Assembly (NCBI RefSeq): GCF_028641065.1
Contig: NC_073394.1
Span: forward strand, 29,388,001-29,452,000
Direction: 5' to 3'
DNA from: Leucoraja erinacea
Taxonomy: Eukaryota
Length of the DNA: 64,000 bases
Shown here: positions 3,122 to 60,876 of the stretch, in pieces
How positions within the stretch are numbered: position 1 is the first letter of the stretch
How the letters are laid out: each line of letters begins with the position of its first letter
Notes under the pieces: model-generated
Seen by the model: only the letters and a program-made list of their open reading frames with translations
What the model was told of the DNA's origin: nothing
Databases searched by the model: none
Translations under genes and position numbers: made by a program

Positions 3122-3265
3122 ATAGACACAAAATGCTGGAGTCTGAAGAAGGGTGTTGACCCGAAACGTCACCCATTCCTTCTCTCCAGAGATGCTTCCA
3201 GTTCCGTTGAGTTACTCCAGTATTTTGTGTCCACCTTCGCTTTAAACCAGCATCTGCAGTTCGTT
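3122..3265 (+). mobile_element. Penelope pLTR-derived short fold-back insertion carrying a hammerhead motif
   Basis: GACACAAAATGCTGGA...TCCAGTATTTTGTGTC inverted arms; family 3' end AAACCAGCATCTGCAGTTC. Confidence 0.75.
3141..3172 (+). ncRNA. Minimal type I hammerhead ribozyme motif (Penelope type), core intact
   Basis: GT-CTGAAGA-A-GGGT(GTTG)ACCC-GAAA-CGTC|AC; predicted cleavage after 3170. Confidence 0.7.
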
Positions 3266-4345
3266 CCCAAAATTTTTTTTTCCTCAGTGTTTTACACTCA
3301 AGGTACAACACACCTCAAGTGGTGCTGAAAAATGATTGCACAATTTTTTCTCCAAAGATTATGAATAGAGTGGAAATGCAGTTTTTAATAAAATATCTTT
3401 CAGAGAAATAGGTTAGGTGAGTCAAATGCCTTTTCTCATTCATACTATGTTGCTCATGAATAGAATAAGCCAGGGGAAAAAAAAATACTTTCCAGTTATA
3501 GATCTCCAAAAGCAAATGTTAAATGAAAGTAAGATGCCTCCTTAATACAAATCGTGTGTTATCAAAAGAGAAATACAACCAAAAGGGAAGGAAACCATAA
3601 CAACACAACTCTTTGTCTTCAGAAATAATCCTTTCAGTTTCAAAATGACATCTTCAGGAACACAATTCTCTGGTCATTCAATTCTAGTTTTCTTTGTACT
3701 TATTGGACTAGTCTAGATCAATAGCATGTTTTGTAATTATTATTAAGTACAATCCTGCACTCATTATTGAGGTGTATTTTAAATTAAACTTTCAGTAAAA
3801 CAGGCAATTGAGTTGTCAGTGTCTGATCACAGCATCCAGCTCTAATGAAAAGCTGATTTATTGAGCAGTCCATTTGGAAACATCAAACTCAATCGAGAAA
3901 CGTTACATTCCAACAGTATCCACAAAAGACTTCACCAAAACCTGCCAGGTCATTTAACAATCTATAAAAAACAGCAAAGTGAACTAATATTTGAACCTCA
4001 TTCAATGAAGCTGTCAGAGTCAAATTAAGACATTCTTTGGCTATTAAAGAAAATTAATTTGCTTTTGATCAAAAAATATACATAATAATAAACCAAAATC
4101 TTAAGAAAAAGAAAATAATCCGATCTTCCTCTTGCTGTCGGACCTATTACATTTACATATGAATGAAGATTTTAATGGAAAAACCAAATCCTGAATTTAA
4201 AGCTTCATTATTAAATGTCACTGCAATAATTGAAAATTAATTGTAAAAGAATGCACAATCTATCAAACTAATGGTGGCTTATCCAGTTAAACCACACAGT
4301 CTGTGATTGCGTGAAGGGGTTTTTCAGCTAGACATTGCTCTGCCA

Positions 4346-4349
<4 letters not shown>

Positions 4350-4378
<29 letters not shown>

Positions 4379-4385
4379 ATATATA
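4350..4385. repeat. (TA)n microsatellite
   Basis: Direct reading of the sequence. Confidence 0.95.
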
Positions 4386-4797
4386 GCTCAGTCCGACCAT
4401 GAAGTCGTGCCTCCACATGTATATGGTTAGGAGATTTGAAAGCAGGAAGGCTCATATTAATGCAGTGTAAGCAACACTGGTATTAACCACAGCCAGTGCA
4501 TTAAGGCATTAATGCATTAAAAAGGCTCAGCAGAGAACAAGAAGACTGAGGGTTCAAACCTTACCTCTCTCTCAGAAACGTTACGGAGCAACTTTGAACC
4601 AGGTTTTAGGATCCAGTGGGAAAGTGTGCGTGATCTACATGCTGTTTACATTATTGGTCAAAGTTAGCAGCATAGCCAGATGTTTGCTTGTTCCAAACTA
4701 CCATTTCTTTTAAGTGCAATGGTTAGTGCCATTATCTGGCACTTGGTTCTTGCTGAGCAAAGGCATCGAGAGAATTTAGAACTGAGTTTGTACATTG

Positions 4798-4895
4798 TAG
4801 ATAGACACGAAATGCTGAAGTAACTCAGCGAGACAGGCAGCATCTCTGGAGAGAAGGAATGGGTGACGTTTCTAGTCTGGACAAGACCCTTCTTG
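4798..4895 (-). mobile_element. Penelope pLTR fragment with decayed hammerhead
   Basis: AGACACGAAATGCTGAAGTAACTCAGCG...GGTGACGTTTC matches the family in reverse. Confidence 0.7.
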
Positions 4896-5242
4896 TTGAG
4901 TATAGTCTACATTGTCCTGCATAGCATGCCACTAATATGAGCTCTCCAAACCAAGCATAGCCAACTAATACATTGCATCATAATGTGCAAGGCATGTTTG
5001 TGAATATGACAGTCCAGGCACACTGTCCCTGCCGTTCCACACAAGAAGATCAGGTTCTTTTTGACTGAGCAAAGACAGCCGAGCCTGCCGTAATCACCAG
5101 TGGCATTTTCACCCAAGGCAGAATATTATGCGTCCCAATGCCTCTTCCAAAGATTGTGAGCATAGAAGCTAAGGAGGGTAAATAATTTCAGGATAGTCCT
5201 AAGGGAGCACACTGCATTGCCAGACATACCTTTGTAAATGAG

Positions 5243-5445
5243 TAGGAAGGAACTGCTGGTTTATAATGAAGACAGACACAAAGTGCTGGAACAACTCAGC
5301 TGGTCAGGCAGCATCTCTGGAGAGAAGGAAATAGTGACATTTCAGTCTTAAGAAGGGTTCTGACCCAAAACACCCCCCCCTGGTCCTTTTCTCCAGAGAT
5401 GCTGCCTGACCCGCTGAGTTGCTCCAGCACTTTGTGTCTATCTTG
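5243..5445. mobile_element. Penelope pLTR-derived fold-back insertion inside an older DeuSINE-like relic
   Basis: Inverted arms AGACACAAAGTGCTGGA...TCCAGCACTTTGTGTCT; decayed hammerhead at the centre. Confidence 0.75.
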
Positions 5446-8655: not shown

Positions 8656-11261
8656 ACAGTGTAAAGATAGCACCCAACGTCAGGATCAAACCAGGGTCTC
8701 CAGCGCTTTGTGATAGCAGCTCCACCAACTGCACCATGGTTGTTAATATTAGATCTTACTTCACCATGATCATTAATAAAGAAGAGCTGTGCTGGAATAG
8801 GAATATTTTTCAAATTGTGGCATTCACGTTGGCTTTAAATTTAAAACAAAACTCTTGCAACTCATCAAAATTGGAAAAATCGTTCTCAGGATATCCCAAG
8901 GTGCTTTGGAGATGTCAAATTATTTCTAACATGTGCTCACTGTAAATGAATGCTTACGGTAGCCAGTTCTAAATATGTACCACTCTGAGAGGACTGATCT
9001 CCACTGAATGTGGTATTTCTATACACTGTGCCAGCCAGGCTAATGATCATGCCAAGACTGCCAATAATCGTGGAATTATAAGCAATTTCACGCTGTGGAC
9101 TCTCAGTCACTGGGGAATTGAGCTGAACCAACCACAATCATTTAATATAGAAATCTCACAGCATGATGGTATTTTCATCCCTTTAGTTTAAGGCAGGAAC
9201 CAAGTCCAGAAGGTCCCAATGATGAAGCTACAGACATCACTAAACCTAATTCTACCTCAATGCTCATTCACATTACCAAACAAACTGCTAGTTAGAGTTA
9301 CAATAACATAACGCGCACACACAAGGTCAAACAGCAAAAATGCTTTAACAATGACCTTTAAACTGGTACTGTTAACACTACCATCATAAGGAAAATATTT
9401 TAATTGTCACTTATGTAGCTAATTCATTATCAAACCTTTCTTCAGTTTCATCATCAATTTCCTAATGTAGAGCACAACATTATGCTCTGATTTCAACATT
9501 CCTGTTGGGTTTCATAACCATCCTATTTGCCCACTGAAGACTTGAGTTGCACATGTCCACTGCTTTGCATCTCATAGTTTGGGCTTTTCCTTCCTTCCAA
9601 GACAGGGTTGCCTGATCAAGGCAACAACCCCAACAGAGACATGGCACAAAGTACCCAAGTACCACTTCACAATCTCAGTATGAAACTCTACACCTTGTTT
9701 GATAACTGTAGTATTTCAAACCTCAGATTTGGTATTATGTGATCATTCATTACGAATTTATCTCATCTTCACACAATTATCAGCAAGCGATGGACGTTTC
9801 CATCAACAAAGCTCAAGGTGTAGAAGTACCATTATGTCGGAAGGAATTGCAGATGATGATAGACACAAAATTCAGACTGAACAAGCGTCTTGATCCAAAA
9901 CGTCACCTATTCCTTTTCTCCGGAGAAGCACGGAAGATAATTCTATGTTGACTGACATTTTCTGAAGGGTGGTATTCTAATGAATAAAATGTCACAATAG
10001 AAGTTTGGGTATTTTTGGTCTCCGGGGATGAGGAGCTGATCCATTGCAGATGTCCATGGTTACCATTTTATGGTAGGAATAGAACCAATAAATGTAGCCC
10101 CATGGTTGGGTCAAGCAGAGAGTTAATGGAGGATAATAGACTGGCCGTCTATGTTGATTACAGTAAAATCCCTTATCATATATCTATACACTGTAAATGG
10201 ATCGATTGTAATCATGTATTGTCTTTCTGCTGACTGGTTAGCATATAACAAAAGCTTTTCACTGCACCTCGGTACACTTGACAATAAACTAAACTAACTA
10301 ACTTCATAATTGATGGAAGGAAGACACGTGGTTGCAGCCATGAAGAATGCTGCTGGTAACTTTCACCAGAGTGGTCGCACGTGGCCCTCTGGGTGTTGCC
10401 GTTTCCTCCCACATTCTAAAGATATGCAGGTTGGCAGGTGTATTGGCTTCTGGAAATTGTCCCAAGTGTGTAGGGAAAGTACGGGACATCGCTGGTCTGC
10501 GCAGATTCGGTGGTCCGAAGGGCCTGTTTCCACGTTGTATCTCTAAACAAAACTAAACTAAGCACTTGCGGCATTTTGTTTTGCATTTTGCAAAATTTCC
10601 AGAGGAATTTAAGAAAAGAATGGCCAAAAGAATGGAGGATGAGCCACAATGAGAGAGTTGGAGGAATAATTAATGGTTGGGATAAAAATATTATGAAGCA
10701 TTGAAGAGAGTACGGTTTGGAAGAACTTCAGTTATGTACGATTAATGCTGCTAATGGTTCTACCAACGATGTTATGACAAAGACTGAGAGAGCCATAAAG
10801 CCATAATCGGAGAATTGGCAAGTACAATTGGTCGAAGAAGGTTGATGTGATAATGGGGCAAGACTATGTGAAAACAAAAGATCCACATTTTAAATTCACA
10901 ATGCAGATGTACAATAAATGGGTGAGGCCAAGGGGGAGATTATGTAAGTGGTTAAAATGTGAACCAGTTGGAGTGTGAAGAATGAGATGCCAGCACAGAG
11001 AACCTTCAAGACAGTCAAGAATCACATCAGCTTGGCCACTGGATTGAGTGTCAATTACCAAGGGGTGGATGAATAGGAGGTGGCTTTTGAAATTCGATCA
11101 CACAGTATGCCAGGGTTTTTCAAGTTTTGGCCAGTCTTCACCTAATGGATTAGAATGGGTTGACAGAACAGATGTGGGTAGGCTTTCTATGGAGGAGACT
11201 GTTAATGGTAATTTTCAATATAAATATTTATCTTTTGCTCAGGAGGCTTGTTAAGAATATA

Positions 11262-11447
11262 GTGTTTAAGAAGGAACTGCAGATGCTGGAAAATCGAAGG
11301 TACACAAAAATGCTGGAGAAACTCAGCGGGTGCAGCAGCATTATGGAGCAAAGGAGATAGGCAACGTTTTGGCCCGAAACGTTGCCTATTTCCTTCGCTC
11401 CATAGATGCTGATGCACCCGCTGAGTTTCTCCAGCATTTTTGTGTAC
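11262..11447. mobile_element. Penelope pLTR-derived fold-back insertion with 15-bp TSD
   Basis: Long inverted arms centred on GGCAACGTTTTGGCCCGAAACGTTGCC; CTTGTTAAGAATATA at 11247-11261 and 11448-11462. Confidence 0.85.
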
Positions 11448-12578
11448 CTTGTTAAGAATATAACATGTATTTTCTCTATTGAAGTGGCCATGTTTCCACT
11501 TGCATCTGCAGAATAGTTATTCTTTCAGTTTTAAAAGGGAAAGATCTCATCCCAAAGATGTCAACAGATGGCATTGGAACTGAAAGTGCGGTGGATTTTA
11601 TTCCTGGAAAAGTGAAATAAAATAATATCTTCCAGAAACTTGAATGTTCGGCAACTTTACACCAAAATGTCGTACGTTTGATCTCCAAGTTGAACGTATG
11701 TGTGGTCGGCAGATGAATACAATTAGTATCAAAACCCCTTGGCAGCAAGAGCGGAGAATATTCAGCATAATTCCCCACTTATTCCCAGCTCATCTCTTTG
11801 GTTTTGATTAATGGGGAAAGTAGGAATTTAGGATCAATTGTGATGTTCGTTACAAACATCCAGCCTGATAGTAGAGAGTAGTTACTGAGCAACACATCGA
11901 CACAGTTAGCTTTATTATACACATTGAGGTGAGAATTTGTTTCAGGAACCAAAAAAAACAGATTGTAACACCCTACAATGGAGAACTTAAATGTGTGTGA
12001 ATCTACTTATGCTATCATTCAATGTGGAACCCATCCCTTCATTAAACTCTGCAATCTGACCCTTCTTCACCAGTAGTCCAGAACCACATGCACTCACACA
12101 CACACATACACACATCCATGCATGCACACAAACACAATCAAACTCACCATCTCTCTGTCTCCGGGACAGTAGTTCCCAACATGGCATCTGTGTTGCTCAA
12201 GTACAGGGTGACAAAGATTGCAAGAAATCCATAAAGTTTGAATGAATGGAAGTGATTTTGTTAGAAAGTTCACAAAAAAAGTTAAAAATAAATAAAAGTA
12301 TACCTGGCAGACTGCTACTGACCTTGCGAGTTGTTGGCAGTCTCCTGTACCCACTGGGACATCCCCATCTCATGGAAAGGAGCAGTTGATGACATAGTTG
12401 TGGATGTTGTAGAGTTTGGCAAAAACGTGGGTAGGATTTTTATGGAGGTCACATATTACAGCACAGGAACAGGCCCCTTCGCCCACAATGTCTGTGCCAA
12501 ACATGATGCCAAGATAAAGTAATTTCATCTGCCTACACATAATCCATACCCTACATATCCATATGCCTATGTAACAGT

Positions 12579-12766
12579 GTAGGAAGAAACTGCAGATGCT
12601 GGCTCATACCGACAATAGGCACAAATTTGCTGGAGTACCTCAGTAGGTCAGGAAGTACCTTTGGAGAAAAAGAATAGGTGATGTTTCAGATCGGAACCCT
12701 TCTTCAGACGGTAAGATAGAGAAGGAGAGATATTGGCTTGGGCCACATAGTTATTCAATGATTTTG
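12579..12766 (-). mobile_element. Penelope pLTR-derived insertion with TSD, inside a CR1 3' remnant
   Basis: Hammerhead-like motif on minus strand at 12677-12709; TGCCTAT(G/C)TAACAGT at 12564-12578 and 12767-12781. Confidence 0.75.
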
Positions 12767-12882
12767 TGCCTATCTAACAGTCTCTTAAACACCACCGTCG
12801 TATCTGCCATCAACTCCACCTACACTGGCAACACATACCAGGCACCCATCTGTAAAAAAAAATGTCCTCCGCACATCATCAT

Positions 12883-13300: not shown

Positions 13301-13343
13301 GCAAACCAGGCCTGTCCCCGCACCTGGCCGCAGACGGCCCACC

Positions 13344-13457: not shown

Positions 13458-13469
13458 ATCGGTGGAGAG

Positions 13470-14150
13470 AGGTATTTTGTGTCTGACGGTGGAAGGTGAT
13501 GATAATTTTGGACAATAACTTCCTTGCACAAAGAGGATGGTGGGGTGGAAGGCAACAACAACAGGAGCCCTGTCTGTGCCCTAGAGGAGCTGAGAACAGG
13601 AGTGCGTGGAATGGAACTGGTGCAGGTGAGCGCACTGTCAACTGTGTCAGATGGCTTGCCACGGTTAAGGAAAAAACAAGGACATCTCAGAAACACTTGC
13701 CTGGAAAGCGTGCTAATTTGAACAGAAATAATGGAGCTGGGGAGACTGCAAGAATAGAATAGAGGTGTTACAGTTACGGTAGCTGTGGGAGTCTGAAGGA
13801 TTGAGATATGGAATAGTCATTAATCCATCCCGGGTCAGGCAGCAACTCTGGATAAAAAGGATGGGCAACATTTCTTCAAGACACTACTTTCAGACCGAAG
13901 AAGGGTCCCAACCCGAATCATCACCCATCCTTTTTTTCCAGAGATATTGCCTGACCCGCTAAGTTACTCAAGCACTTTTTGTCTATCTTCGGTATAAACC
14001 AACATCTGAAGATCATTTCTACACGATTCTACAGATGAAGGAGGAATCGTTTCACGCGAGAGTGCGTTTGGCCAAGTGGGGAAAGGGTGGCGGTGGAAGA
14101 CGTCTGTTTAGGGTGCTTCAAGAAGATCCACCACCACTCCTTCAATTACA
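13470..14150 (-). mobile_element. Old Penelope-like ORF remnant with a nested pLTR fold-back (about 13830-14023)
   Basis: Reverse remnants resemble the region upstream of the PLE endonuclease (..IVQNYHHL..); fold-back arms with decayed hammerheads. Confidence 0.5.
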
Positions 14151-14495: not shown

Positions 14496-16114
14496 TGTAA
14501 GCCTCTGATAAAATATTTAGTAAAGAATGCACGAAAGCAAGTGATATAAATGAAAGATCTTACTCTTTGATACGATCAAAGCAAAAGAAAAAATAATTTG
14601 AGGGAACTCAACAGTCTAAAAAGGTGGGCAAATGTCTTAGATGCACATACATCAAGCACTGCCTAATCTAAATACCAGAAGTTTAATTAATTTTAAAGTA
14701 GAGGGCATGCACTGACCTACACCAATTGAGTCCTTAATATCTAACATTTTATATAACTGACACACATGCAGTGTCTTTACATTTTTTAATAGAATTTGAA
14801 GAACAATGACAACTGTTTATGGGAAGCTCTCCAATGAATTGTAAGCAATGCTATAAAAATATAAACAGGATAAGTTTTTTTTTTAAATCAAGATTTATCT
14901 CATATTTTTACCAACAATAAATGTGTTTTCTCTGCCCTGGTTCAGGCATCATTATTCTGTGATACACAAACATATTTGTAACTGAAGACAGCAACCACTA
15001 GTTGGAGTTGCTTGGAATTTGCAGATCTCAGATTCATATTTGTCACATCATCCGTTACATCTTGACACCGCCCACCAAGCACATGCACCGAGTGAATGTC
15101 CAGCCTAAGTCCCACATTTCGGGTATTGGCTACAGCTTTGCAAGAAGCACCACAAGAAGCACCACGCGCGTCTCTATGGAATATTTAAGCATAATGGTGG
15201 CTTTTAACTCTGCCACCCCTTTCCTCAGCAAGTTGTAGACATCTATCACCCACTCATTCATCTTCAAATTCCTTTATTTCTCTTCCCGTGGTTACTGTGC
15301 ACCACATTAAAGGGAAAGGCGGTTGAAACAAGGAACTACAGATGCTGCTTAACACAAAAGGACATAACACATAATCTATCCATGTTCTCCAGAGATATAC
15401 CATATTGATTGTAAGGATCCAGTTTTAACAATATATATGTATATTGTATATATATAGTATAAATTGTATAGTTTGCATAATTGTATGCATCTTAATTAAA
15501 CCATCCCTTGGCTTCCTGTTCCAAAGTAAACAAATCCATCTGTACAGTCTTTCCTCGTGCCCAAATTTCTCAAGTTCTCTCATTTTAACATGTCATGAGC
15601 CTCCTTAACTCGATCATATACTCCCTGTAACGTAATGGCCTTATCTGTATGCTTAAATCCATCTATGATCTAATTGGTATCTGCACAACTCGTTCATGGC
15701 CTCTCTGCTTCATCTAACAATGGATATGTATTCCACGTGCCTTCTAAACCACCCACCTTATTGACATGTCCGGTGGACAGACCGCTTCAAGATCGCTCTG
15801 ATGTTTTCTGATGTCTCTGCGTTCTAATATTAGTTTTGTGTACCTTTACATTGCTTCACATCCCCACATGCATAAACTTGCAGCTCTGCTCCTTCTGTTT
15901 GCCAGTTTTCTGTGTACCGGGCCAGTTTATTAAGTAAGCATCCATAAAGTTTGCAACTTGTCTCTATATCACGTAACTGCAAACATCTTGATCGTCCGCC
16001 TGACATTCACTGTATAGATATATAAACAATCTGATGTGAATGGATAGCAGGCAAAACAATGCTTTTCACAGTTCCTCTGTGCACGGGAGAAAAATAAAGC
16101 TAAACCTAAACATT

Positions 16115-16254
16115 GTGTGAGGAGGAACTGCAGATGCTGGTTCACAGCGAAGTTAGACGGAAAATGTTGGAGTAACTCGGTGGGTCAGGCGACATCCTTG
16201 GAGAAAGGTTTTCTCCAGAGATGCTACGTGACCCGCCGCGTTACTCTAGCATTT
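16115..16254. mobile_element. Penelope pLTR-derived fold-back insertion, hammerhead region deleted, 14-bp TSD
   Basis: Arms meet at GGAGAAAGGTTTTCTCC; TAAACC(T/G)AAACATT at 16101-16114 and 16255-16268. Confidence 0.75.
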
Positions 16255-16954
16255 TAAACCGAAACATTACTTTCCTTAAGTGGACACAGAATGCTGGAGT
16301 AACTCCTGGGTTCCCTGGTGCCTGGACTGAGATGCCACATGATAGCGGGTCTCAGTTCCTCCACATTCCGGGAGTGATTCGGGCCTCAATCGCCCCGCTC
16401 CCAGAGTGATGACAGACTTCAGTCCAGGAGTGATGTGTGAGTCTGTCTCCACAGTCCCGGGGCGCTGTCCGGCCCACATTGAAGGCGACGTGGAATGAGG
16501 TTTGGGTATTTAATTTAAAATGTGCAAACACGCGCAAATAAACTTCGTCTAGGTTACATTTAAACTGTAGAAAGTGTTGATTTTATCACAATCTTCGTAA
16601 AGCACGACTCGCATTCCCAGACAGGGAGACATAGTCACAGCCACCTTTTATTTCTGTTGCTGTGATCAATAAAACGCTCTCATACTTAAATTTAACTGCA
16701 CGCCAGTTGTTTGTCAAACGCGAATATAGATGGCAATTTGCCGACAATTAAGCCCTATAAATAACTATGTGTACCCTGAATTGCCTCTTACTGCTCGGGC
16801 TAAAGCCTTTAAAACTGTGAGCGCGCACAGTACGTTTCTCAGCCTTAGTTGCGTCCCAATCCTACAAGTCAGCACAACTGTGTTACTGCCGTTACTGTTA
16901 CAATCCAAATAACAACGCCACGGTACGGATACAATCGTCGAGGTCATAGCGTCA

Positions 16955-17774: not shown

Positions 17775-17925
17775 CGCGTCCGTAGGCTAGGTGCAGTTTT
17801 AGTGCTCTGCCACTCTTGAGCACCGCGATGTGCAGGTATGTGAACCAGATGCCGAATGTGAGTAGGACGAGCAGCAGAAGCAGTTTGAACTGTTTGCGGA
17901 TCTTCTTGAGTGGGAAGCGCCACAT
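17775..17925 (-). CDS. B4GALNT4: First coding exon of beta-1,4-N-acetylgalactosaminyltransferase 4 (type II Golgi membrane protein; cytoplasmic tail plus TM anchor). Remaining exons lie left of the window.
   Basis: MWRFPLKKIRKQFKLLLLLVLLTFGIWFTYLHIAVLKSGRALKLHLAYGR aligns without gaps to the recalled human N-terminus [50 protein letters not shown]. 50 codons plus 1 nt, then donor G|GTGAGC at 17774. Lies in a CpG island. Confidence 0.93.
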
Positions 17926-21711: not shown

Positions 21712-22335
21712 GACCTACCTGATCTCCCGGTTGCCAAACACGTTAACTCCCACTCCCATTCCCACACTGACCTTTCTGTCCTGGGCCTCCTCCACTGTCA
21801 GTGAAGCCCAACGCAAATTGGAGGAACAGCACCTCATATTTCGTCTGAAGAAGGGTCTCGACCCGAAACGTCACTCATTCCTTCTCTCCAGATTGCTGAG
21901 GTTACTCCAGCGTTTTTTTTGTATATCTTCGGTTTAAACCAGCATCTGCAGTTCCTCTTTGCATATTTAGCTTGTGCAGCTTACAACTCAGCGGTATGAA
22001 TATCGACTCCTCTAACTTCATATAACCCTTGTTTTCCCTCTCTGTCCATTCCTCCCCCATCCTAGTTCTCCAACCAGTCCGACTGTCCTCCTGATTAAAT
22101 TTTATCTTTGTGTGCTTTGTTGTCACCTTTCCCTAGTTACCAATGATCTACATTTTCCCTGAGCTTTGTTCCCCCTTGTGTCTCATTTTCACACCTTACC
22201 CTTCCATATATCTGTGTCTCCCTCTCCCCGACTCTCAGTCTGAAGAAGGGTCTCAACCCAGAAAAGTCATCAAATTCCTTCTATCCAGAGATATCGCGTG
22301 TCCCGTTGAGCTACTCCAGCATTTTGTGCATCTCT
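21712..22335 (+). mobile_element. Penelope-like 3' end with a nested pLTR/hammerhead insertion
   Basis: PDLPVAKH..SHSHTDLSVLGLLHC and AQRKLEEQHLIFR are interrupted at 21843 and resume near 21962 (SGMNIDSSNF); second, degenerate hammerhead at 22240. Confidence 0.85.
21843..21874 (+). ncRNA. Minimal type I hammerhead ribozyme motif, core intact
   Basis: GT-CTGAAGA-A-GGGT(CTCG)ACCC-GAAA-CGTC|AC; predicted cleavage after 21872. Confidence 0.75.
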
Positions 22336-22475
22336 TTGGACAGCAATGGACCTGTGTGGTGCCTTTAAACCATACTCCCACTAACTTTGGGGAAAAGTTA
22401 CCCAACCATATTTGACATCCAATCACATAAAAAGAAATGCCATTGACCAAAGCTTCATCTGTGAAACGTGGTTTA

Positions 22476-31278: not shown

Positions 31279-31374
31279 TCCTTGCTTTCTCCCTCCTTCC
31301 CCTCCCCTTCCCAGCTCTCCCACAGCCTACTGTCTCCCCTCTTCCTTTCTTTTTCCCGCCCCACCTTCACATCA

Positions 31375-39074: not shown

Positions 39075-39864
39075 CATTACTGGTCAAATAATGTAGTACG
39101 TTATGTGGCTGCAACACTTTAAAGCCATTAGTAGCACAACATGTTCTGCTCCCAGTCAGGAAACCGTCATTTTAAATACTCAAACTCGCCCTTAAGGTGG
39201 AAGAGAGACTGAATCGGAAAACAAGAAGGTTCACATTGGATTGGATGCAAAGATGTGAATATATCCTAAGATAGACAAATGCTGGAGTAACTCAGCAGAT
39301 CAGACAGCACACTGGGGAAAATTAATAGGTGGCGTTTCAGGTCAAGACCCTTCTTCAAACTCAATATATACTGATGGCAAATGAAGGCCAAAATTGATCC
39401 CAGTTTCACTCCTAGCCTTTTACCATATTTTCATTTGTGCTTTTAGGCTCTCCTTATTTCCTTTATCACGTTTCAAACATGAAACAATTTTTTTTTCAGA
39501 ATTCGGAGGTACTTTTTCCAACATTTTCTCAGGTTTCTAACATTAGCTTTTTATTAATACATCTCAACATTAGAATACATTCAACAACAAAAAAAGCATT
39601 TTATCCTCGATCAATTTACCAGCAGTTTGATTACATTTTGTGTATCATTCTACAAAAAGTGAAGAATTGATTGCATTTTGTGAGAGTGTAGATTACATAT
39701 TTGAGGATATGCTTCGACAATCAGTTCCATGTTACATTGAATGGAAAGTGGTTAGGTCCATTGTACTGAACTACAATGAGTATGAATAGATAGGGATTTG
39801 AGCCATTGAAACTCTATACTATGGGTATGAAGAGAAAGAGGAGAAAACTATTAGAATTCCAATA

Positions 39865-40830: not shown

Positions 40831-41365
40831 TGTCAGATTTTGGGAAAGGAATATGAAAAATACAAGTAACTCAATGGGTCGGGCAGCATCTCTGAAGAAC
40901 ATAGATAGGTGACGTTTTGGGTTGGGACCCTTCTTCAGTCTGATTGTTGGAAGGGGAGGAAGAAAGCTCGGTGAGAGAAGAGGCAGGATGAAGTGTGGCA
41001 GGTAATAGGTGGAGACAGGCGAGGGGGGTTTTGATAGGCAGGTGTTTGGAACAAAGGTAATTGGGGAAAAAGCAATTTTATTCCTCATGATAATTAGGGT
41101 CTGCTTTTTTTTCTGTTACGTGTTCACTTTCGCTAAATGCCAACAGTAAAACTTTAAAAATCATTTTAAAATGTATTTGCTGGTGTTGACATTCAAAAGG
41201 AGACCAATGCTCCAGATATCACGTATATGTAGTTGGTTGGCTTACCTGCTCGTTTCTGTGCATAATCACTTCATTGATAAGCTGGGGAGAAAAAAAATAG
41301 CACTTCAACAAAAGCAAACTAAGTTTTTTTTAGTTTGGAATTGGTATTGTTGATAGTCTTCTTAA

Positions 41366-45431: not shown

Positions 45432-46544
45432 AATGAGCAAAACTGATACTGGGTGGATATCTGTACATTTAAATATTTTGACTTCCAGAAAGTATTTGAC
45501 AAGGGCCGCCAAAACGCACAGTGTTGGGGAAAGTGTGTAGCGTAAATTGAAGACGGGTTGTCACAGTCACTGTCAAATGGCGATGAGGAGGAATTTCTTT
45601 AGCCAGAGTGTGGTGAATCTGTGTAATCCATTGCCACAGATGGCTGTGGAGGCCAAAACAGTGGGCATTTTTTATAGTGGAGATCTTAGGTTCTTGATTA
45701 GGAAGGGGATCAAAGATTATTAGGAGACGGCAGGAGAATGGGGTTGGGAGGGAAATGTACATCAGCTATGATTGATCAGTGGAGTAGACTCAATAGGCTT
45801 AAATGGCCTAATTCTGTTCCAATGCCTTATGGACTTATGGTCTTAGCAGATACAGAATTCGAAGATGTGGGTATTTTTCAGACTGGAAGCTGCAAGTACT
45901 GGAGTGCTTCAAGGCACAGTTATCGGTCCTCAATTATTTACCATTTATATTAATGATCTGGAGGAGGGAGCACACTGTGAAGTATCCAAGTTTGTGAAAG
46001 ACATTAAATCGACTGGAAGGGCTTTTTTAGTTTTTAATTTAGTTTAGAAACACAGCTGGGAAACAGGCCCTTCAGCCCACTTGATCCTGACCTTGGGTGT
46101 TGTCTTATGGAGTTTGCATGTTCTTCCTGTGACCGCATGGGTTTCCTTCAGATGTTCTGGATTCCACCCGCATCCCAAATATGTGTGGGTTTGTAGGTAA
46201 ATTGGGCCCCTATAAATTCCCCATGTGTGTGGGAAGTGGATGAGAAAGTGGGATAACATAGAACTAGTGTACAGGCGATCGTTTGTTGGCGTGGATTCTG
46301 TGGGCTGAAGAGCCTGTTTCGATGCTGTATCTCTAAACTAAACTAAAATCAAAGTAAAAATCAATGGAAGGCAAGATCGAGTAACTGTCATAACAGGATC
46401 AGGCATTAAATTCATGTAGACAAAAATGCTGGAGAAACTCAGCGGGTGAGGCAGCATCTATGGAGTGAAGGAAATAGGCAATGTTTTGGGTCGAAACCCT
46501 TCTAAATTCACGTGCTTAATTTATAGCAGCTAAATTAGGCGATT

Positions 46545-46980: not shown

Positions 46981-48109
46981 CTCCACGACATACTTGGCAG
47001 GTCTTTTTAGGATCTCTGGCGGGCATGGATGGGTGACCCATTCCGAAGAAGGGTCCCGGCTCAAAATGTCACCCATCCATGTCCTCCAGAGATGCTGCCT
47101 GGCGCATGAGTTACCCCAGCACTTTGAGTCAAAATTGTATCTGTGATACCAAGCCCCATCCATACATCATCTGTTTCAACCCATCGCCATCAATTACCCA
47201 TAACAGCACACGTTTACACTAGAAACAGAAGTGGAACGTGCTGGAAATGCTCAGCAAGTCAAGCAGCATCTGTGGTAAGAAAAGCCTATGCCAGATCTCC
47301 ATTTTATATTTTTGTTTCAGATTTCCAGCATCTGCAGAATTTACAGGCACATCAGCTCAAGGTGGGGTGAAGCACAAAATCAATTCTTATCTCACAAAAT
47401 CGTTTATTTTCAATAATTGAGAGCCAGATTGGAATATACCGAGACATAAGGAATTATTGTCCTAAAACCTTTAAAATATAAAACAAATATCGCAACCATA
47501 TCCTTTGCTCATCCATGTAAAAGTCATGTTGGCAAGAGTAGGATAAAACTCATTAGATTAGCACAAGGGGGTAGAAACTTTAGTGGAGAGAGGTTCTGTA
47601 ATGCGATGATTCCAACAGAGTTGCCCAACGGTGTCCTGTGGTGATAAACACAATAGTGCGACTACATTTGGAAATATGACTCGGGTTGTTGTGCTTGAGC
47701 GGAAAATGTTGCAAGAATCCATGAAATTGTGGTTACTGGTCACAGTGAAGAGAAGATTTAAACTGTTCTGCCCCACTACGCTTTAGTTATCAGCTATTCA
47801 ATTCAGTGCTTTGGCATTCCGATGCTATTGTGGCATCTCTACACAAGGTGAACAAGGATAAAAGCACATCATTCTAAGATTTTAGTATATCTGCCCAAAA
47901 TGCTGTTGGCCAAACCCACCCTGGAACCCCTTTATAAATGCAAAGGAAAGTGAATCTCCTCTCATTATACTATGTGCTTTGTGATAAATTAAATTAAAAA
48001 ATTGGAAGCAGATCAAATAAATATTTAACATCTTAAATCTGATTAGGGGTGTATCAAATGTTTCCATCTTATGCCTTCTGGTCGGAGACAGAGCAGTTGG
48101 CTTTACCTT

Positions 48110-51200: not shown

Positions 51201-53589
51201 AATTCTTTTAATGGGCTCATTGTAACATTGCTACAATTGTGACCTGAAAATGAGAGTTTAAGGCAAATCAGTAGAGGAGAAGAAAGAAAAAACAGAATTT
51301 TAATTTCTGGAGGGCATTTAATCTCTAACATGGGTCTTTGTATGCTTTCTAAAGTGTGATGACCAGAATTGGACACATTTCTCCAGTTACAGTCCAATCG
51401 ATGTTGAAACCTTTCTTCTCGAGAGCAAAATCTGGTGCAGTAGGGCCTCAACAGTTAGAGTGTCCTTATATATAAAATGAAACACTGCAATATCCATTCT
51501 TAGTGTCAGTCTATACATTCAGTATGTCCCTGGGAACAGCTATTAAATCAGAGAATCCTCTATTATGCAACTTCTCAAGATGAATGGTGACAAAGACCCT
51601 AGAATTTCCACCTGGCACATTAGTTCATAAATTCTTCCTGTCCTCACCAGCTGAAGTAGATTGGATTCTCTCTAATACACAGTAAACTTGAAACAATGGG
51701 TGTTACATAAATATTTGAATGACTAACTTGTTCGAAAATTCTTTTGACCTCTAATAATGAAAAGTAATTCACTTTTCCAAAGATGATCAATTGGAAATGT
51801 AAGAGCACAGTTGGAATACTTAGAGCAAGAATAACCACTTTTTACAGTTTGTAAAGAACTATTGGGAATGCGCTGCTAGAGGGCAAAGCTTTGGTGGTTT
51901 AGGGAGGGGTGGCAGATGCACCTAGTGGGCATTTTAAATACTCTTGGATAGGTAGATCAAATAGAACAATGTCCTACAACTTTATTCAGGGAAGGAGGGG
52001 GGAGATGAGGCAAGTTTGTGTGAGGGGGCAGTTTTTTTACAGGTAGATGGTGGGTGAAGCAGATACATTGGCATTTTAAATACTCTTGGCCACATGGATT
52101 CATATGGGGTGATGAGCATTGTTCAGATAGATGTGATGATATTGGCATCATATTCGCCACAGACATATGTGCTGTTTTGTTCTACGTTCTAAATACCAAG
52201 TAGTCATCAGTTTTTCAGTTTAGTTTATTGTCGTGTACGTGTACTGGGGTATAGTGTAAAGCTTTTGTTGCACGCTAACCAATGAGTGGAAAGATGATAC
52301 ATGATTACTATCGAGTGTATAAATACTTGATAGGGAATACGAGTTAGTGCAAAGTAAAGCCAGTAAAGTCTGATCAAAGATAGTCTGAGGGTCATTCAGA
52401 TCCTTTCAGGAGTAATGACAGAAACAAATTTCAAAACACTTGCAAGTTACACACAGAGGTTACTCAAGTCACACACGTTTAACGGGATTACACTCCATCA
52501 TTGTCTGCTCTTAATAATCGTAAATGCTTTTTTTTAAAGTTCTGTGAGGTAAGGATTTTTTTTAAAAACTTATTTTAACCAGGGGTTACTTCTTTGAGCT
52601 TTATTATAGTAGACCTCAACCGTAGCAAAATGCCTGTCTAGTTTCAATGAGTATGGCCTGAGTACTGGCTGCTGCCCAGACTCCACTGCAGCTGGTTGGT
52701 TAGAGATTGTATCCCTGCATCAAGTGAAGCACCAAGGGACAAGGTTTTGGCAGATTAGTAGGAACATGCTGGTTACAGCTTGCTTTGGCTGGTTGGGTGT
52801 CTGCCCATTTTGATGGGCAGCACCATTTATTTCTCTTGTAAGATGTTCCAAGACTTATCATACTCCTGTAAATGTTGATATAGAATACTGCCAACTCCCA
52901 TAAAGGTCTGAGGATTCCCACCCGAAACATTACCTATCCGTGTTGGCCAGAGATGCTTCTTGACCTGCTAAGTTGCTCCAGTATTTGGTATCTTTATTTT
53001 CCCATAAAACTAAGACGGTCAGTCCACTTATCAAATTTGTTCATGACACTGAGTCCGAGAGTCACCAACCTTTAAAATGTGGTCCAGTTCTTCCAAATGC
53101 TTCTGCCTTTAAGTTCATTCAGGATGTAGGCGTACGTTTTATCGGAGTCTAGCTTGTTTTACTTTATCTATTTTCGAAGGCAAATTACATTGATCTCCTT
53201 GGCTCTTGTATAAATATCGGACGGCTGCAGATACTGGGATCCAGAGATGATCAACGTTCGTGGTTTGAAGAACTCAGTCGATGCGGGGAAATGAGAATTA
53301 CTGGCCACTTTTTCAAGTGTTGCAGAATGAATTCATTCTAACAAATGATTCACTCATTTCGCTTAGGACCTGAACAAAAATCATCGATTATTAGCTAATG
53401 AGGGTAGAAACAGAAAAAAATCAAGGTGATATTCCAAATGTAACTTTTTACAAAGGAAATGTAAAAAAGGAAGTGCTTCTTAGCTTATATCAACGTGACA
53501 AGACCTATCAAATGAAAGAAATGTTGGTGACATTTGGTGAGCTGCTGAGTAATTATTGCCTCTGCCTTGTGAAGGGTCATCATTAGGAT

Positions 53590-54928: not shown

Positions 54929-55443
54929 TTAACCTCCCATGAAATGCATTGCAGAATGTACACATGTGGAATCTGAGGAGTTCAAACATGTCTAATTTAT
55001 TCATAGGCTCTGTGCAAATGCACTGTGCACACAACATACTCATGATAGAATATCTACACATTTACAATGTGAAATCCCTTCACGAGTTTAACATATTTTA
55101 AAATTGTACAGGTCAATTGTGTTTCTGACCTTCACTATCTCTGTGTAACTTTATTGGTGTTCCTTGTGTGGCACTTGGAAATATTTTTGTTGTTGCATCT
55201 CTTTCTGGACCGACCGTTTTCTCTCATAATGACTTTTCTCAACCATAATCAAGGTTTTGTTCAGCAATTGTATCGCTCATATTAGTATGTCCAATTCATA
55301 ATTCCCCTCCCACTCCACTCCACGGTTCCTTGGGTTATCTGTGCTGCGATCATGTCTTCTTACTGAATTTTGACCCAATGTTTACGAGATATCCCTTCTA
55401 ACCTTCTAATCGTCTGCCACCAGAAAACCTTGGATCTCCCATT

Positions 55444-55733
55444 ATGAGTATATTTTGTGTCTATCTTCAGTGTAAACCAGCATATGCAGTTCCTTCCTAC
55501 GCATTAGGAAGGAACTGCAGATGCTGGTTTACACTGAAGATAGACACAAAATGCTGGCGTAACTCAGCGGGACAGGCAGCATCTCTGGACAGAAGGGATG
55601 GGTGACATTTCACGTTGAGACCATTAATCAGACTTGAGTCTGAAGAAGGAGCTCGACCCGAAACGTAATCCATTCCTTCTCTCGAGATGTGTTGCCTGTC
55701 CCGCTGAGTTACTCCAGCATTTTGTGCCTATCT
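55444..55733. mobile_element. Double fold-back Penelope pLTR insertion with head-to-head hammerhead motifs
   Basis: 48-bp arms at 55452-55499 and 55505-55552; second palindrome centred on CAGAC-TTGA-GTCTG (55629-55642); ATCTCCCATT at 55434-55443 and 55730-55739. Confidence 0.85.
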
Positions 55734-55886
55734 CCCATTTACTCATCTTCTTTCTCAGGCTTTCCAATGCAATTATTTATTTTCTATTGAGAAGCTATTT
55801 GATTACCAATAACAATCTTTACTTTAGCCTTGCATAATGATGCTTTGTGCCCTTGTGTTCGGCAATTATAGCCTCTTCCTGTTCTG

Positions 55887-57059: not shown

Positions 57060-57520
57060 GAAACAAGGAAATGCAGATGCTAATTAATGCACAAAAGAAC
57101 ACACAGTGCTGGAATAACTCACCAGGTCAGGCAGCATGTCTGGAGAATGTGGATGGATGGCGTTTCTGGTCAAGACCCTTCTTCAAAATGATTTCTTGGT
57201 GGGGGGGGGGGGGGGGGGGGGGGGGGGAGACGAAATCTAGAAGAAGTGAGAGGCAGTTCAAAATGTAGCAGGTAATATGTGGATGCAGGCGATGAGGGGC
57301 TTTGATAGGAAGATAGTGTGGACAAAGACCAGAGATAAAAGCAGCACAGGGGTTGAAAGGTTGCAAATTGCGAAGTTAAAGGGAGGAACCCAGCAGGTGG
57401 GTGGAGGGGGAGGGGAAGAGGGGAGGAGAGACTGAGGTGGAGGAAGGAAACGGGAGAGGGTTGAGTTGGAGGGTATCTTCATCTCAGTTCTGTTGTCAAC
57501 ATCCACTCTGGATTAAAGTG
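57060..57520 (-). mobile_element. Penelope 3' UTR/pLTR remnant with poly-G tract (57201-57227)
   Basis: Reverse pLTR, purine-rich UTR and decayed hammerhead. Confidence 0.65.
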
Positions 57521-57748
57521 TGGCAATGGGAAAGAGTAATGATTCAAGCAGCTATCCCACTCAGCAAATTGAGTGTCCATTTATTGAATAAGAACAAACA
57601 GATTTCAAGGAGAGCTGGTCAGCATTTATCCTTTGGCTGGTATCATCAAAAGAGCTTGACTGCGTTGATCCCATCCGAAGGAAAGGTCTCGACCCGAAAC
57701 GTCAACCATTCCTTCCCTCCAGAGATGCTGCCTGTCCCGCTGAGTTAC

Positions 57749-57838
57749 ATAGAAACATAGAAAATAGGTGCAGGAGTAGGCCATTCAGCCCTTCGAGCCT
57801 GCACCGACCGCCATTCAATATGATCATGGCTGATCATG
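57749..57838 (-). mobile_element. 90-bp CR1 3' tail inserted in a Penelope pLTR, 7-bp TSD
   Basis: GAGTTAC at 57742-57748 and 57839-57845. Confidence 0.85.
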
Positions 57839-58373
57839 GAGTTACTCCAGCTTTGTGAGTCCATCTTAAATTAAAACCAACAACTGCAGTTCCTTCCTAC
57901 ACATTGATGCCATTAATATTGGCTGGAAATTGCCAGATGGAACTTGCTTGCTGTGATTGCCTATGTAATAATAGAAGACGTCAAAATCTTTAGGATGACA
58001 CGTGGATATGAAAGGTTGTGAAGCAAATGATTTTAAAACTGGCTGGAAAGCAAATTTTCAAATCTTTTTGAGATGAAATCTCCAAAGTAGCCTACAATCA
58101 ATCACATTTTTCACTTCAGAGCAAATGCCTGGCTCGCAGGCAAAGCATGAGAAGAGATAATGTTAAAAAATAGGTTGTGACAAGTGGCATACCTTATATG
58201 TTTATAATGAGCATTCAAAACATCATCTGTAAAAAAGTAATTTAATTGGAGATAATTGGAGATAACTGCAGATGATGAGCAGGAGGCAAAGTGCCGGAGG
58301 AGCGGAGCGAGTCAGGCAGCATCTCTGCGGGGAATGAACGGGCCGTTTCGAGTCAAGTTGTTTTCGTGTTCAA

Positions 58374-58406
58374 GTCTGAAGAAGGGTCCCATCCTGAAAC
58401 ATCACT
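58374..58406 (+). ncRNA. Hammerhead-like motif, variant (ATC cleavage triplet)
   Basis: AGT-CTGAAGA-AGGG(TCCCA)TCCT-GAAA-CATC|ACT; stem III palindrome disrupted. Confidence 0.45.
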
Positions 58407-58450
58407 GGCTCATTCTGTCCACAGATGCTGTCTGACATGCTCAGTTACTC

Positions 58451-59178
58451 CAGCATTTTGTGTTTTGCTTATAACATACTTACAGAATTTTGAAACTGCA
58501 TGCCAAACTTACCTGTAGTTATAAACTTACAGCACTTTTATTCATGTTTCATGTAATCAGTCACTATTTTTCAGAGTTAAGGTTGGAGGGATAGCAGGAG
58601 AGATAACTTCCCAAAATAGCACTATGAGAAGGCATGTCATCTTTGTCATCTGCGCATGTAGTGTAAGTGTTGCAGAATGTTTTAGGATGATTCTCAGTAT
58701 ATCTCACCTCAAAGTGCAACCTTCCACAGGCAGACGACATCATTATAAATCACAATTCTTTTTGTGATTGTAAGATGCACTATTTTCATTTGCTTAATTT
58801 TGGTTCCATGCAAGATCGTCCGTTGAGAGAGAGGAACAGATGATGGAGATAAAGGGCGGCACAGTGGCGCAGAGTTGCTGCCTTATGGGCGGCACAGTGA
58901 CGCAGCGGTAGAGTTGTTGCCTTACAGTGCCAGAGACCCGGGTTTGATCCTGACTACGGGTGCTGTCTGTACAAAGTTTGTATGTTCCCACTGTGACTGC
59001 GTGAGGTTTCTCCGAGTGCTCCGGTTTCCTCCCACACTTGAAAGACGTACAGGTTTGTAGGTTAATTGGCTTTGGTAAAATTGTAAATTGTCCCTAGTGT
59101 ACGGGGTGAGAACTGAATAGCCGCTGGTCGGCGCTGACTCGGTGGGCAAAAGGGCATGTTTCTGCACAGTACCTCTAA
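58451..59178. repeat. Inverted duplication arm 2, including a V-SINE at 58853-59178 with doubled head
   Basis: Reverse complement of 48110-48837. Confidence 0.9.
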
Positions 59179-59959
59179 AAAAATAAAGAACCATGATGAA
59201 TCCTTGACACTGCCAATTGGAGAGAGACACAGAAAAGCAGATTTTCCTTATGTTAAGTATCATTTAGGAAAATAATTGTTTGTATATATATATATTAATG
59301 AAGCTGTGATATTATTTATTAATTTATCTGAAAAATTATTAGAATATTATCTTTTCCAAGATGTTTGTTTCTTTGGTTTGCTGCTGAACCTTAACAGGGA
59401 TGTTGATAGCAGCCTACAGCTATTCAAGACCTTGATTCCCCTGGGACAAGGTAGCTATACACATGCTCCAAGAATCAAAGATCTTGGAGAAAACCAACAC
59501 ATGCCACTGGGAGGACGTACAAACTCCGTACAGACAGCACCCATAGTCAGGATGGAACCCGGGTCTCTGGCGCTGTAAGGCAGCACTAATGTGCCACCAA
59601 TGTTTTAAAGTCTTTGTGTAGGACAAAAAGTGATTTTAGAAGCACAGTTAAATGCAATTAACATTTTTTGTTAATTATACACAGCATTTGTTAAAACTGT
59701 TGAACCAAATTAACACTTAGACTTATTAAATTCCTGCACAGTAAGAGATTATTTGGCTCATTGCATCAATACCCCTCAGCTTTTCCCCATCGCCTTGCAA
59801 ATTATTGTGCTTTTACCTTTAAGAAAATCACAATGGAATCTGCACTTTGAGGCAGTGCATTCCAGATAATAACTACTTTGCATCAAATACCTTTTACTCA
59901 CCTTTCGTGAATCACTGTAAAACTAAGTCCTCCAGATCTTGCCTCCTCTAACAATGAAT

Positions 59960-60625
59960 TAGAACATAGAACATGGAACACAGAGCGGTACAACACAGGA
60001 ACAAGCCCTTCGGCCCACCATATCTGTGTTGAACATGACATCAAGTTAAACTAATCTCATCAGCCAGCACATGATCCATATCTCTCCATACTCTGCATAT
60101 CCATGTGCCGATTTAAAAGCCGCTTCTTCTTTCGTGTCCATCGTCCATGTTTCAAATGTTGACATCGCTGTCATCGTCCGTCCTGAAAAAGACGCAAGCT
60201 TCAGGCGACAATCAGTGGGAGCCATCACTTGTTGCAATAGATCATGATGGTAGCAGAATTAACTCGGGATACTTCCAGTTTCCAGCCCCGCGACGTGGAC
60301 GCTTAAACACCACTATAATATCTGCCTCCACCACTACCCACGGCAGAGTGTACCAGGCACTCACCAACTTCTGCATTTAAAAAAAAAACCTGGTCCGCAC
60401 ATCTCCTTTAAACTTTGCTCCTCTCACCTTAAAGCCTTACCCTATAGCCTTTGACATTTCCACCTAGGAAAAAATAGGTTCAGACTGTATATCCTATCCA
60501 TGCCTCTTACAACTTTATACCCTTCCATCAGGTCTCGCTGCAACCTCCCAGAGAAAACAATCCAAGTCTATCCAACCTCTTTTTAAAGTTAAAACCTCTA
60601 ATCTAGGCAGCATTCTGGTAAACTG
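59960..60625 (-). mobile_element. CR1 3' remnant interrupted by the RTE-like short element (60123-60305)
   Basis: (AGAACAT)n reversed tail; CR1 sequence resumes at CTTAAACACC. Confidence 0.75.
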
Positions 60626-60876
60626 ATAAACATTCTGGCAAGAAAGAAGTGTCTCGACCTGAAACGTCACCTATTCCTTCGCTCCATAGATGCTGCCTCA
60701 CCCACTGAATTTCTCCAGCATTTTTGGCTACCGACAAAAATTGCATGAATGGTTTAAGAAGAAACAAAACCATCTGGATATCAAGCCTAGCTTTTCCATA
60801 AAGCAGCCTCCACTCATAGAAGTCACTCGGGTATTTTTCCAAAAGCACCCTGAAGGTATTAACCTCACATCTCAAC

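What the first reader, a model, noticed from the sequence alone, without database searches (positions are those of the whole stretch)
3122..60735. Family of TSD-flanked fold-back mini-elements built from a hammerhead-bearing Penelope pLTR
Seen: about 20 copies of one motif, consensus GT-CTGAAGA-A-GGGT(CTCG)ACCC-GAAA-CGTC-AC, on both strands. It is intact at 3143, 21845 and 31377, and decayed or partial near 4865, 5345, 9877, 12680, 13895, 22240, 30049, 39330, 40910, 46480, 47043, 52908, 55640, 57160, 57675, 58376 and 60645. Many copies are not attached to any ORF. They form 140-290 bp palindromes of one complete arm plus an inverted truncated arm. At least five have 10-15 bp direct flanks (11247/11448, 12564/12767, 16101/16255, 29402/29630, 55434/55730). 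In several, the truncated arm ends in microhomology with the flank. Established: Penelope-like elements carry minimal type I hammerheads with a palindromic stem III (ACGT) proposed to act as dimers, and they often have inverted truncated pLTRs. Inference: these are either abortive fold-back TPRT products or an independent retrozyme/MITE-like family, potentially giving ribozyme motifs on both strands and long dsRNA hairpins inside a host intron. I do not know of a description of this family in elasmobranchs.
Basis: partly seen in the sequence, partly recalled or inferred. Interest (0 to 1): 0.72.

Follow-up and report, generated by a model that had tools for sequence, protein, structure and literature searches.

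The report
Head-to-head Penelope retrotransposon end insertions
These small mirror-image repeats are short end-pieces of a known kind of jumping gene (Penelope-like), likely copied twice, head to head, into one cut site; they are ordinary in this window, but elsewhere in the genome over 3,000 relatives share one unexplained hairpin centre and cluster near chromosome ends.

Summary
The repeats and all five target-site duplications are real. They are the hammerhead-bearing ends (pLTRs) of an abundant Neptune/Nematis-type Penelope-like element (PLE). The layout (inverted short copy, 30-40 bp tail on one side) is already described for PLEs, and this scan reached the same reading before on other shark or skate DNA. 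The short arm is not an abortive product: arms stop at two fixed sites about 37 nt apart, and 60 of 67 classifiable pairs join one of each. In 18 of 60 pairs neither arm contains the other, so simple fold-back of one cDNA fails. Window centres are all different, and no window palindrome keeps an intact hammerhead. Likely mechanism: two cDNAs primed from the two staggered nicks, joined at self-complementary spots in the hammerhead. New, but outside the window: 3,190 exact hairpin centres share one junction and a 4-nt loop, mostly G-N-A-A. They are nearly absent from the largest chromosomes, cluster near scaffold ends, have their own duplications and often carry tandem repeats. This class is unexplained; post-insertion conversion is my best guess, and an assembly artefact is not excluded.

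The parts
3122..3271 (+). Tailed pLTR copy with an intact minimal hammerhead core (starts 3143), preceded by an 18-bp inverted remnant; no flank duplication over 6 bp
4791..4894 (-). Single tail-less arm, decayed core
5239..5445 (.). Head-to-head pair: minus arm tailed but starting inside the hammerhead, plus arm tail-less but starting before it; neither contains the other; no duplication found
9872..9929 (+). Partial arm, decayed core
11247..11462 (.). Head-to-head insertion with 15-bp exact duplication; tailed arm on minus, tail-less arm on plus; centre in hammerhead stem II
12564..12781 (-). Tailed arm reaching into the upstream UTR, joined to a very short inverted arm that ends at the tail-less site; 15-bp duplication (1 mismatch)
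13831..14025 (.). Head-to-head pair, tailed arm on plus, short arm ending before the tail-less site; no duplication found
16101..16268 (.). Head-to-head insertion lacking the hammerhead altogether (both arms start downstream of it); 14-bp duplication (1 mismatch)
17775..17925 (-). First coding exon of a host gene (looks like B4GALNT4; name recalled, not tested), transcribed on the minus strand; the copies at lower coordinates likely lie in its intron
21713..22340 (+). 5'-truncated PLE (end of the endonuclease ORF, UTR, tail-less pLTR at 22222-22340) with a second, tailed single copy carrying an intact core (21843-21961) nested in the ORF remnant between 7-bp repeats
29395..29637 (.). Head-to-head insertion, tail-less arm on minus, tailed arm on plus, centre in stem II; 15-bp duplication (1 mismatch)
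31099..31520 (+). 5'-truncated PLE: last 58 codons of the ORF, pyrimidine-rich UTR, intact core at 31377, arm and tail; links the motif to the parent element
39264..39363 (-). Single tail-less arm
40859..40950 (-). Single arm, decayed
46416..46503 (-). Single tail-less arm
47009..47133 (+). Decayed tail-less arm with a short inverted remnant
52896..53008 (+). Single tail-less copy starting 3 nt before the core, 9-bp duplication
55434..55739 (.). Composite: tail fragment, inverted tailed arm, then tail-less arm; 10-bp exact duplication
57061..57748 (.). Tailed arm on minus and a partial arm on plus, about 500 nt apart
58258..58469 (.). Decayed head-to-head pair, tailed plus tail-less
60644..60729 (+). 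Single tail-less arm, decayed core

Best explanation
The repeats are 5'-truncated insertions of the hammerhead-bearing end of an abundant Neptune/Nematis-type Penelope-like retrotransposon, and each palindrome was likely built at insertion from two separately primed cDNAs. Shown: arms end at two fixed sites (about +91 to +95 and +128 to +132, counting from the first C of the core); pairs are nearly always one of each; flanks carry 9-19 bp duplications; the same end follows the element's RT-endonuclease ORF. Inferred: the endonuclease makes two staggered nicks, one nick primes at the tailed site and the other at the tail-less site, and both copy RNA of the same source subfamily. Both cDNAs tend to stop in or just before the hammerhead. 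They are then joined through its self-complementary spots, by direct annealing or by one end folding back and then annealing to the other cDNA. If only one nick yields a cDNA, the result is a single copy. The hammerhead is a passenger here: templates were copied uncut and most cores have decayed.
For: The motif follows the ORF end in the window; that ORF end has 86,806 first-look candidates in the genome. A 461-aa piece shows RT-like sequence, a C-X4-C-XX-C linker and a weak GIY-YIG hit (E 0.0005, below Pfam's cut-off). 3' ends are bimodal in unselected DNA. In 90 genome pairs: 60 tailed/tail-less, 4 both tail-less, 3 both tailed, 23 with one arm ending elsewhere; 60 of 67 against 50% gives p=1e-11. 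Duplications in 34 of 90, shuffled control 0-1. Tail-less arm further 5' in 18, tailed further in 18, level in 24 of 60. Recurrent centres occur in both polarities, and 36 spacer lengths are seen; 33 of 90 junctions overlap by 2 nt or more (counted). Arms agree in subfamily: 18 of 18, 16 of 16 and 82 of 90, against 62-72% by chance. 13 of 111 long ORF-bearing stretches have the same short inverted arm at their 5' edge. Literature: inverted 5'-truncated copy plus one-sided tail (PMC8557442 passages; PMC3846280 passages); two RT start sites bracketing the tail, both strands primed, uncut RNA used in vitro (PMC11167929 parts 1-2 of 4).
Against: The in vitro data are for a Poseidon-clade element, not this one. 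Pure two-site priming does not explain the 23 of 90 pairs with an arm ending away from both sites (some may be decay). It also does not explain the 3,190 shared-centre hairpins outside the window or five pairs with a shared filler. No full-length element or 5' pLTR running into the ORF was found. 56 of 90 pairs gave no duplication. The 90 pairs are the 50 listed and 40 of the 50 listed (five chosen for their symmetric centre), all on C1-C2 and selected for exact 16-nt arms.
Confidence: 0.85

Rival explanations
1. Abortive fold-back: one cDNA folds back on itself, copies itself and stops at a chance microhomology with the target.
For: Junction overlaps at self-complementary spots (33 of 90); arms are more alike within (0.90) than between (0.85) elements; 14 of 90 pairs have a tailed arm plus an arm that ends early; self-priming was proposed for PLE inverted junctions (PMC3846280 passages).
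Against: Short arms end at a fixed site. In 18 of 60 tailed/tail-less pairs, and in 5 of the 14 early-ending pairs, the short arm reaches further 5' than the tailed arm. L149 has a long tail-less ORF arm with a tail-only inverted arm.
Confidence: 0.1
2. The window's palindromes belong to an independent, self-propagating MITE- or retrozyme-like family copied as a unit.
For: Outside the window, 282 exact copies of one 44-nt centre and 508 plus 2,682 centres with one junction; five pairs with a shared filler.
Against: All window centres differ and none is of the shared type (one search found none in the window or in 600 kb of unselected DNA). Duplication length varies from 9 to 19 bp and the two ends differ by the tail. 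In the shared-centre class the tail lies left in 11, right in 8 and on both sides in 3 of 30, and loops do not follow arm sub-lineage in 10 loci.
Confidence: 0.05
3. Sub-question, short single copies: they are run-off cDNAs from an RNA whose 5' end lies about 3 nt before the hammerhead (a transcription start), rather than random truncations.
For: 9 of 12 single insertions with a duplication in unselected DNA start at -11 to 0; 63 of 143 single arms start at -10 to +5 by alignment; head-to-head counts fall from 1,302 and 861 to 277 and 134 as the spacer grows; the site resembles an initiator element (consensus recalled).
Against: No 5' pLTR continuing into the ORF was found. Starts scatter over 11 nt. 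The same point is the base of a predicted hairpin, so an RT stop explains it too. Alignment-based starts are biased to this boundary.
Confidence: 0.45
4. Sub-question, shared-centre class: the centre is imposed after insertion, by breakage at the palindrome tip and repair or conversion from nearby copies in recombination-rich chromosome ends.
For: 88 of the 90 listed copies on C1-C21 lie within 6.5 Mb of a scaffold end (18% expected; young ORF ends 26 of 59); 10 of 2,682 lie on C1-C4 against 652 expected. 21 of 30 carry centre-proximal tandem duplications against 3 of 90 elsewhere (p=2e-13). Neighbours share variants: 5 of 5 listed at one end of C8 have the same minor loop. None of 14 same-subfamily pairs on C1-C2 has this centre. 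Non-spaced inverted repeats stimulate homologous repair in mammalian cells (PMC3300023, abstract only).
Against: No recombination map and no orthologue comparison. A junction hotspot at insertion (RT stop plus one untemplated base) with regional insertion bias, a hairpin-RNA source, or an assembly or polishing artefact also fit; my odds are about 35, 20 and 10 in 100.
Confidence: 0.35

Closest known systems
Insertion units of endonuclease-bearing Penelope-like elements: 5'-truncated copy, adjacent inverted pLTR, one-sided 30-40 bp tail, duplication (PMC8557442 passages; PMC3846280 passages)
   Same: Head-to-head inverted pLTR, tail on one side only, palindromic or overlapping junction, short duplications (8-10 bp in rotifer, 9-19 bp here), hammerhead in the pLTR.
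   Different: Both arms are often cut down to under 135 bp; there are hundreds of thousands of copies (about 690,000 arms extrapolated); the one-tailed rule and the pile-up of 5' ends at the hammerhead edge can be counted here.
Poseidon element of the green anole in vitro (PMC11167929, parts 1-2 of 4 read)
   Same: Two RT start sites downstream of the hammerhead that bracket the tail, priming on both strands, uncut RNA as template.
   Different: Other clade (no linker zinc finger); there the ORF starts inside the hammerhead, which I could not show here; the parts read do not explain inverted pairs.
Minimal type I hammerheads of metazoan PLEs (PMC4209133, parts 1-2 of 4 read)
   Same: Same core, extra unpaired base before stem II, G-C at the base of stem II, palindromic stem III; mostly single dispersed motifs; opposite-strand pairs 100-700 bp apart already noted in Schistosoma.
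   Different: Stem I is only 2 bp (as in the Drosophila virilis variant); no cartilaginous fish in the parts read or in 2 of 3 supplementary files (file 1 could not be searched).
Non-LTR retrozymes (PMC7229834 passages; bioRxiv 10.64898/2026.07.22.740005 parts 1-3 of 5)
   Same: Short, non-coding, type I hammerhead, derived from PLE pLTRs; reported in one chondrichthyan genome (its supplements were not available to me).
   Different: Retrozymes are head-to-tail tandems of 150-450 bp units; the window's copies are single or head-to-head, with tails and duplications.

Membership tests
EN+ Penelope-like element, Neptune/Nematis type | Single ORF with RT followed by a C-terminal GIY-YIG endonuclease | tested here: met
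   461-aa open piece in L131; GIY-YIG hit E 0.0005 below cut-off; the RT part is read by eye (no Pfam RT hit); ORF end joined to the motif in the window
EN+ Penelope-like element, Neptune/Nematis type | [quoted passage not shown] | tested here: met
   Both visible in P0001; definition from PMC8557442 passages. Neptune versus Nematis not resolved; no tree built
EN+ Penelope-like element, Neptune/Nematis type | pLTR with hammerhead, optional 30-40 bp tail, inverted 5'-truncated copy, variable duplication | tested here: met
EN+ Penelope-like element, Neptune/Nematis type | Full-length copy flanked by a 5' pLTR (partial tandem) | tested here: inconclusive
   The longest of 20 fetched copies reach about 2.8 kb without a 5' pLTR continuing into the ORF
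Minimal type I hammerhead | Core, extra base before stem II, G10.1-C11.1, palindromic stem III, cleavage triplet | tested here: met
   3 window copies and 13 in 600 kb match the descriptor, reversed control 0
Minimal type I hammerhead | Helix I of 4-5 bp | tested here: not met
   2 bp; the predicted monomer fold pairs the core with downstream sequence
Minimal type I hammerhead | Self-cleavage as monomer or dimer | not testable with these tools
Non-LTR retrozyme | Two or more consecutive head-to-tail units, each with a complete hammerhead | tested here: not met
   None among the window's three intact cores; short tandem units with cores occur outside the window (L333)
Non-LTR retrozyme | Expressed as processed linear and circular monomers | not testable with these tools
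   Family reads are strand-balanced; circles not testable
MITE (definition recalled) | Matching terminal inverted repeats, fixed duplication length, uniform size | tested here: not met
   Ends differ by the tail, duplications are 9-19 bp, centres and sizes vary

The most novel reading that the evidence does not exclude
The family records two undescribed processes. First, a rule of PLE integration: twin priming that uses the tailed site on one strand and the tail-less site on the other. Second, a spreading hairpin: over 3,000 of these palindromes near chromosome ends have converged on one centre with a G-N-A-A loop, either because that centre is copied into neighbouring insertions by break-and-convert repair or because a hairpin RNA serves as template. 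This would be a selfish palindrome centre riding on a retrotransposon's ends.
Probability: 0.3. Interest if true: 0.65.

Novelty: new member of a known kind. Interest (0 to 1): 0.38.

Why it matters
The window's elements are ordinary debris of a known retrotransposon class. Their value is statistical. How PLEs make inverted ends and tails is called unresolved in PMC8557442 (passages), and this genome offers thousands of young junctions that favour two-site twin priming and predict exact RT start sites for an in vitro test. The shared-centre class, if real, is a natural experiment with thousands of replicates on how a vertebrate germ line remodels short palindromes, and it may mark recombination-rich regions.

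Tried and rejected
Rfam scan: no hammerhead family hit; the miRNA hits are generic hairpins. PDB search with the ORF piece: nothing. Search for a full-length element or conserved sequence after the tail: none; 2 sharing pairs among 62 tails, not traced to the element. Extra-G (cap) test at -4: dropped, because subfamilies differ natively there. Sequencing runs: no RNA holder listed. The first attempt to lay reads returned no data, so copies below 11100 were not examined with reads. In the lay on 11100-18300, 97 in 100 laid reads of two runs came from other copies; depth over the palindrome was high and strand-balanced; exon reads were stranded; no start or end pile-up lay at a cleavage site. 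Editing could not be judged. Whether the RNA runs are of the window's species is not established. Folding does not discriminate: all 26 intact cores in genome palindromes are paired in the predicted fold, but so is the monomer. Paper searches for a description in cartilaginous fishes or of the shared centre found none; Repbase and Dfam could not be searched. The count '39 on C1' typed into one search is 40 on recount.
Full report
Positions with a sign count from the first C of the hammerhead core (0). Site A is about +91 to +95, site B about +128 to +132; the stretch between them is the tail.

1. Observation. The motif is intact at 3143, 21845 and 31377. A profile built from 10 genome copies finds 41 arms in the window, 189 in 600 kb of unselected DNA and none in 1.03 Mb of reversed sequence. 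The exact 30-mer occurs 11,482 times in the 2.19-Gb genome. All five flanking direct repeats are there; one starts 7 bases earlier than stated. Seven head-to-head pairs of 143-238 bp lie in the window. None holds an intact core, and the minus strand has none.

2. Parent element. At 31099-31520 the motif follows the last 58 codons of an ORF and a pyrimidine-rich UTR. That ORF end has 86,806 first-look candidates in the genome, and an RT segment has 6,192; these are not copy numbers. A 461-aa open piece shows a C-X4-C-XX-C linker and a GIY-YIG core with two cysteines, the marks of Neptune and Nematis PLEs in PMC8557442 (passages). I built no tree. I found no full-length copy among 20 long ones.

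3. Ends. 3' ends in unselected DNA fall into two peaks, at A and B. This matches the optional 30-40 bp tail of PLEs (PMC8557442; PMC3846280). In vitro, the tail lies between two RT start sites used on both target strands, and hammerhead cleavage is not needed (PMC11167929, parts 1-2). Among neighbouring arms, 40 of 73 are head-to-head.

4. Test of fold-back and of amplification. Pattern searches count 1,302, 861, 277 and 134 head-to-head pairs with exact 16-nt arms at spacers of 0-30, 31-60, 61-90 and 91-120 nt. I fetched 90 of the first 100 listed, all on C1-C2, five of them chosen for a symmetric centre. Sixty join an A arm to a B arm, 4 are A/A, 3 are B/B, and 23 have one arm ending elsewhere. 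Thirty-four have a 9-19 bp duplication, against 0-1 in shuffles. In 18 of the 60, the A arm reaches at least 5 nt further 5' than the B arm, so neither arm contains the other, and copying one cDNA back on itself cannot make them. The window pair at 5239-5445 is such a case. Some centres recur, at self-complementary spots in the hammerhead, but with the tail on either side, so they are hotspots. Arms nearly always share subfamily marks. Thirteen of 111 long ORF-bearing stretches carry the same short inverted arm at their 5' edge, so short and long insertions form a continuum.

5. Mechanism (inferred). Two staggered nicks prime two cDNAs, one at B and one at A. They stop in or just before the hammerhead and are joined there by short complementarity, directly or after one end folds back and anneals to the other cDNA. 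Single copies arise when one nick alone yields a cDNA. Nine of 12 single copies with a duplication start at -11 to 0. This could be the RNA's 5' end or an RT stop at a hairpin base. Earlier notes of this scan favour the first; I could not separate them.

6. Ribozyme and RNA. The core meets the minimal-hammerhead description of PMC4209133 (parts 1-2) except for a 2-bp helix I. That paper reports low cleavage for such motifs and already notes opposite-strand pairs. Only 2 of 90 genome pairs have intact cores on both strands. Raw RNA reads show the host exon transcribed on the minus strand, and abundant, strand-balanced reads from other copies of the repeat, as expected for passengers in host transcripts; local intron depth was too low to test editing. 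DNA contigs of a second organism overlap the ends of the insertions at 13831-14025 and 16101-16268 with about 1 difference in 100, so these two are probably old.

7. Results against my reading, outside the window. (a) Five pairs share a filler of about 45 nt, and some share long flanks, as if carried inside a larger repeat. (b) One 44-nt centre occurs 282 times exactly. With the 4-nt loop left free, one stem variant gives 508 loci and another 2,682. Loops are G-N-A-A on one strand in 48 of 50 and 34 of 50 listed loci. exceeds by 33 matches, which suggests that about 93 in 100 of the 508 have such a G. These loci are nearly absent from the largest chromosomes (10 of 2,682 on C1-C4, 652 expected), and 88 of 90 listed on C1-C21 lie within 6.5 Mb of a scaffold end; young ORF ends show a much weaker bias, 26 of 59. 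They are separate insertions: duplications in 8 of 30 (control 0-1), and 8 of 10 of the second variant have one tail and an 11-18 bp duplication. The tail lies on either side, and loops do not follow arm sub-lineage. Twenty-one of 30 carry tandem duplications next to the centre, against 3 of 90 elsewhere, and neighbours share variants. A tandem joint of similar type appears in raw RNA reads of three runs and in contigs of a second organism, which speaks against pure artefact but does not test the loop. None of these centres lies in the window or in the 600 kb sample. I rate conversion after insertion at 35 in 100, a junction hotspot with regional bias at 35, a hairpin-RNA source at 20 and artefact at 10.

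8. Novelty. The window's anatomy is known for PLEs, and the scan's earlier notes on this and other genomes reach the same reading (unchecked AI notes, not counted as evidence). Nine paper searches found no description in cartilaginous fishes and none of the shared centre. Two look-ups in the scan's notes found nothing on the shared centre. Repbase and Dfam were not searchable; one supplement of PMC4209133 and those of the 2026 preprint were not seen. Verdict: new member of a known kind, interest 0.38, with one unexplained lead worth a read-level check.

Noticed in passing
L296-L305, L309, L311-L350 (C8, C11, C12, C16, C17, C19, C20, C22 ends and others): Over 3,000 palindromes with one shared centre and a 4-nt, mostly G-N-A-A loop, clustered near scaffold ends, often with tandem duplications.
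   Followed up: partly
L291-L295: Five head-to-head pairs on five chromosomes share a filler of about 45 nt; three share the left flank and two the right flank.
   Followed up: partly
window 5868-5945 (+): HDV-like match to the CPEB3 ribozyme model, 33.1 bits against a cut-off of 35; its 3' part overlaps a repeat with a second copy at 60122-60304.
   Followed up: partly
window 48956-49187 and 54705-54928: A second, unrelated family of long inverted repeats (about 230 bp, 91% complementary arms), possibly a true MITE.
   Followed up: no
window 21835-21968 and 31460-31520: PLE ends nested in other PLE copies: a single copy inside an ORF remnant, and an arm of one subfamily joined to the tail of another.
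   Followed up: partly
window 23301-26274: A stretch of about 1.5 kb present twice in tandem (identical ORFs at 23887 and 25372).
   Followed up: no
L333 and L297: Tandem arrays of 43-46 nt units that each span the whole hammerhead motif, the closest thing to a retrozyme seen.
   Followed up: no
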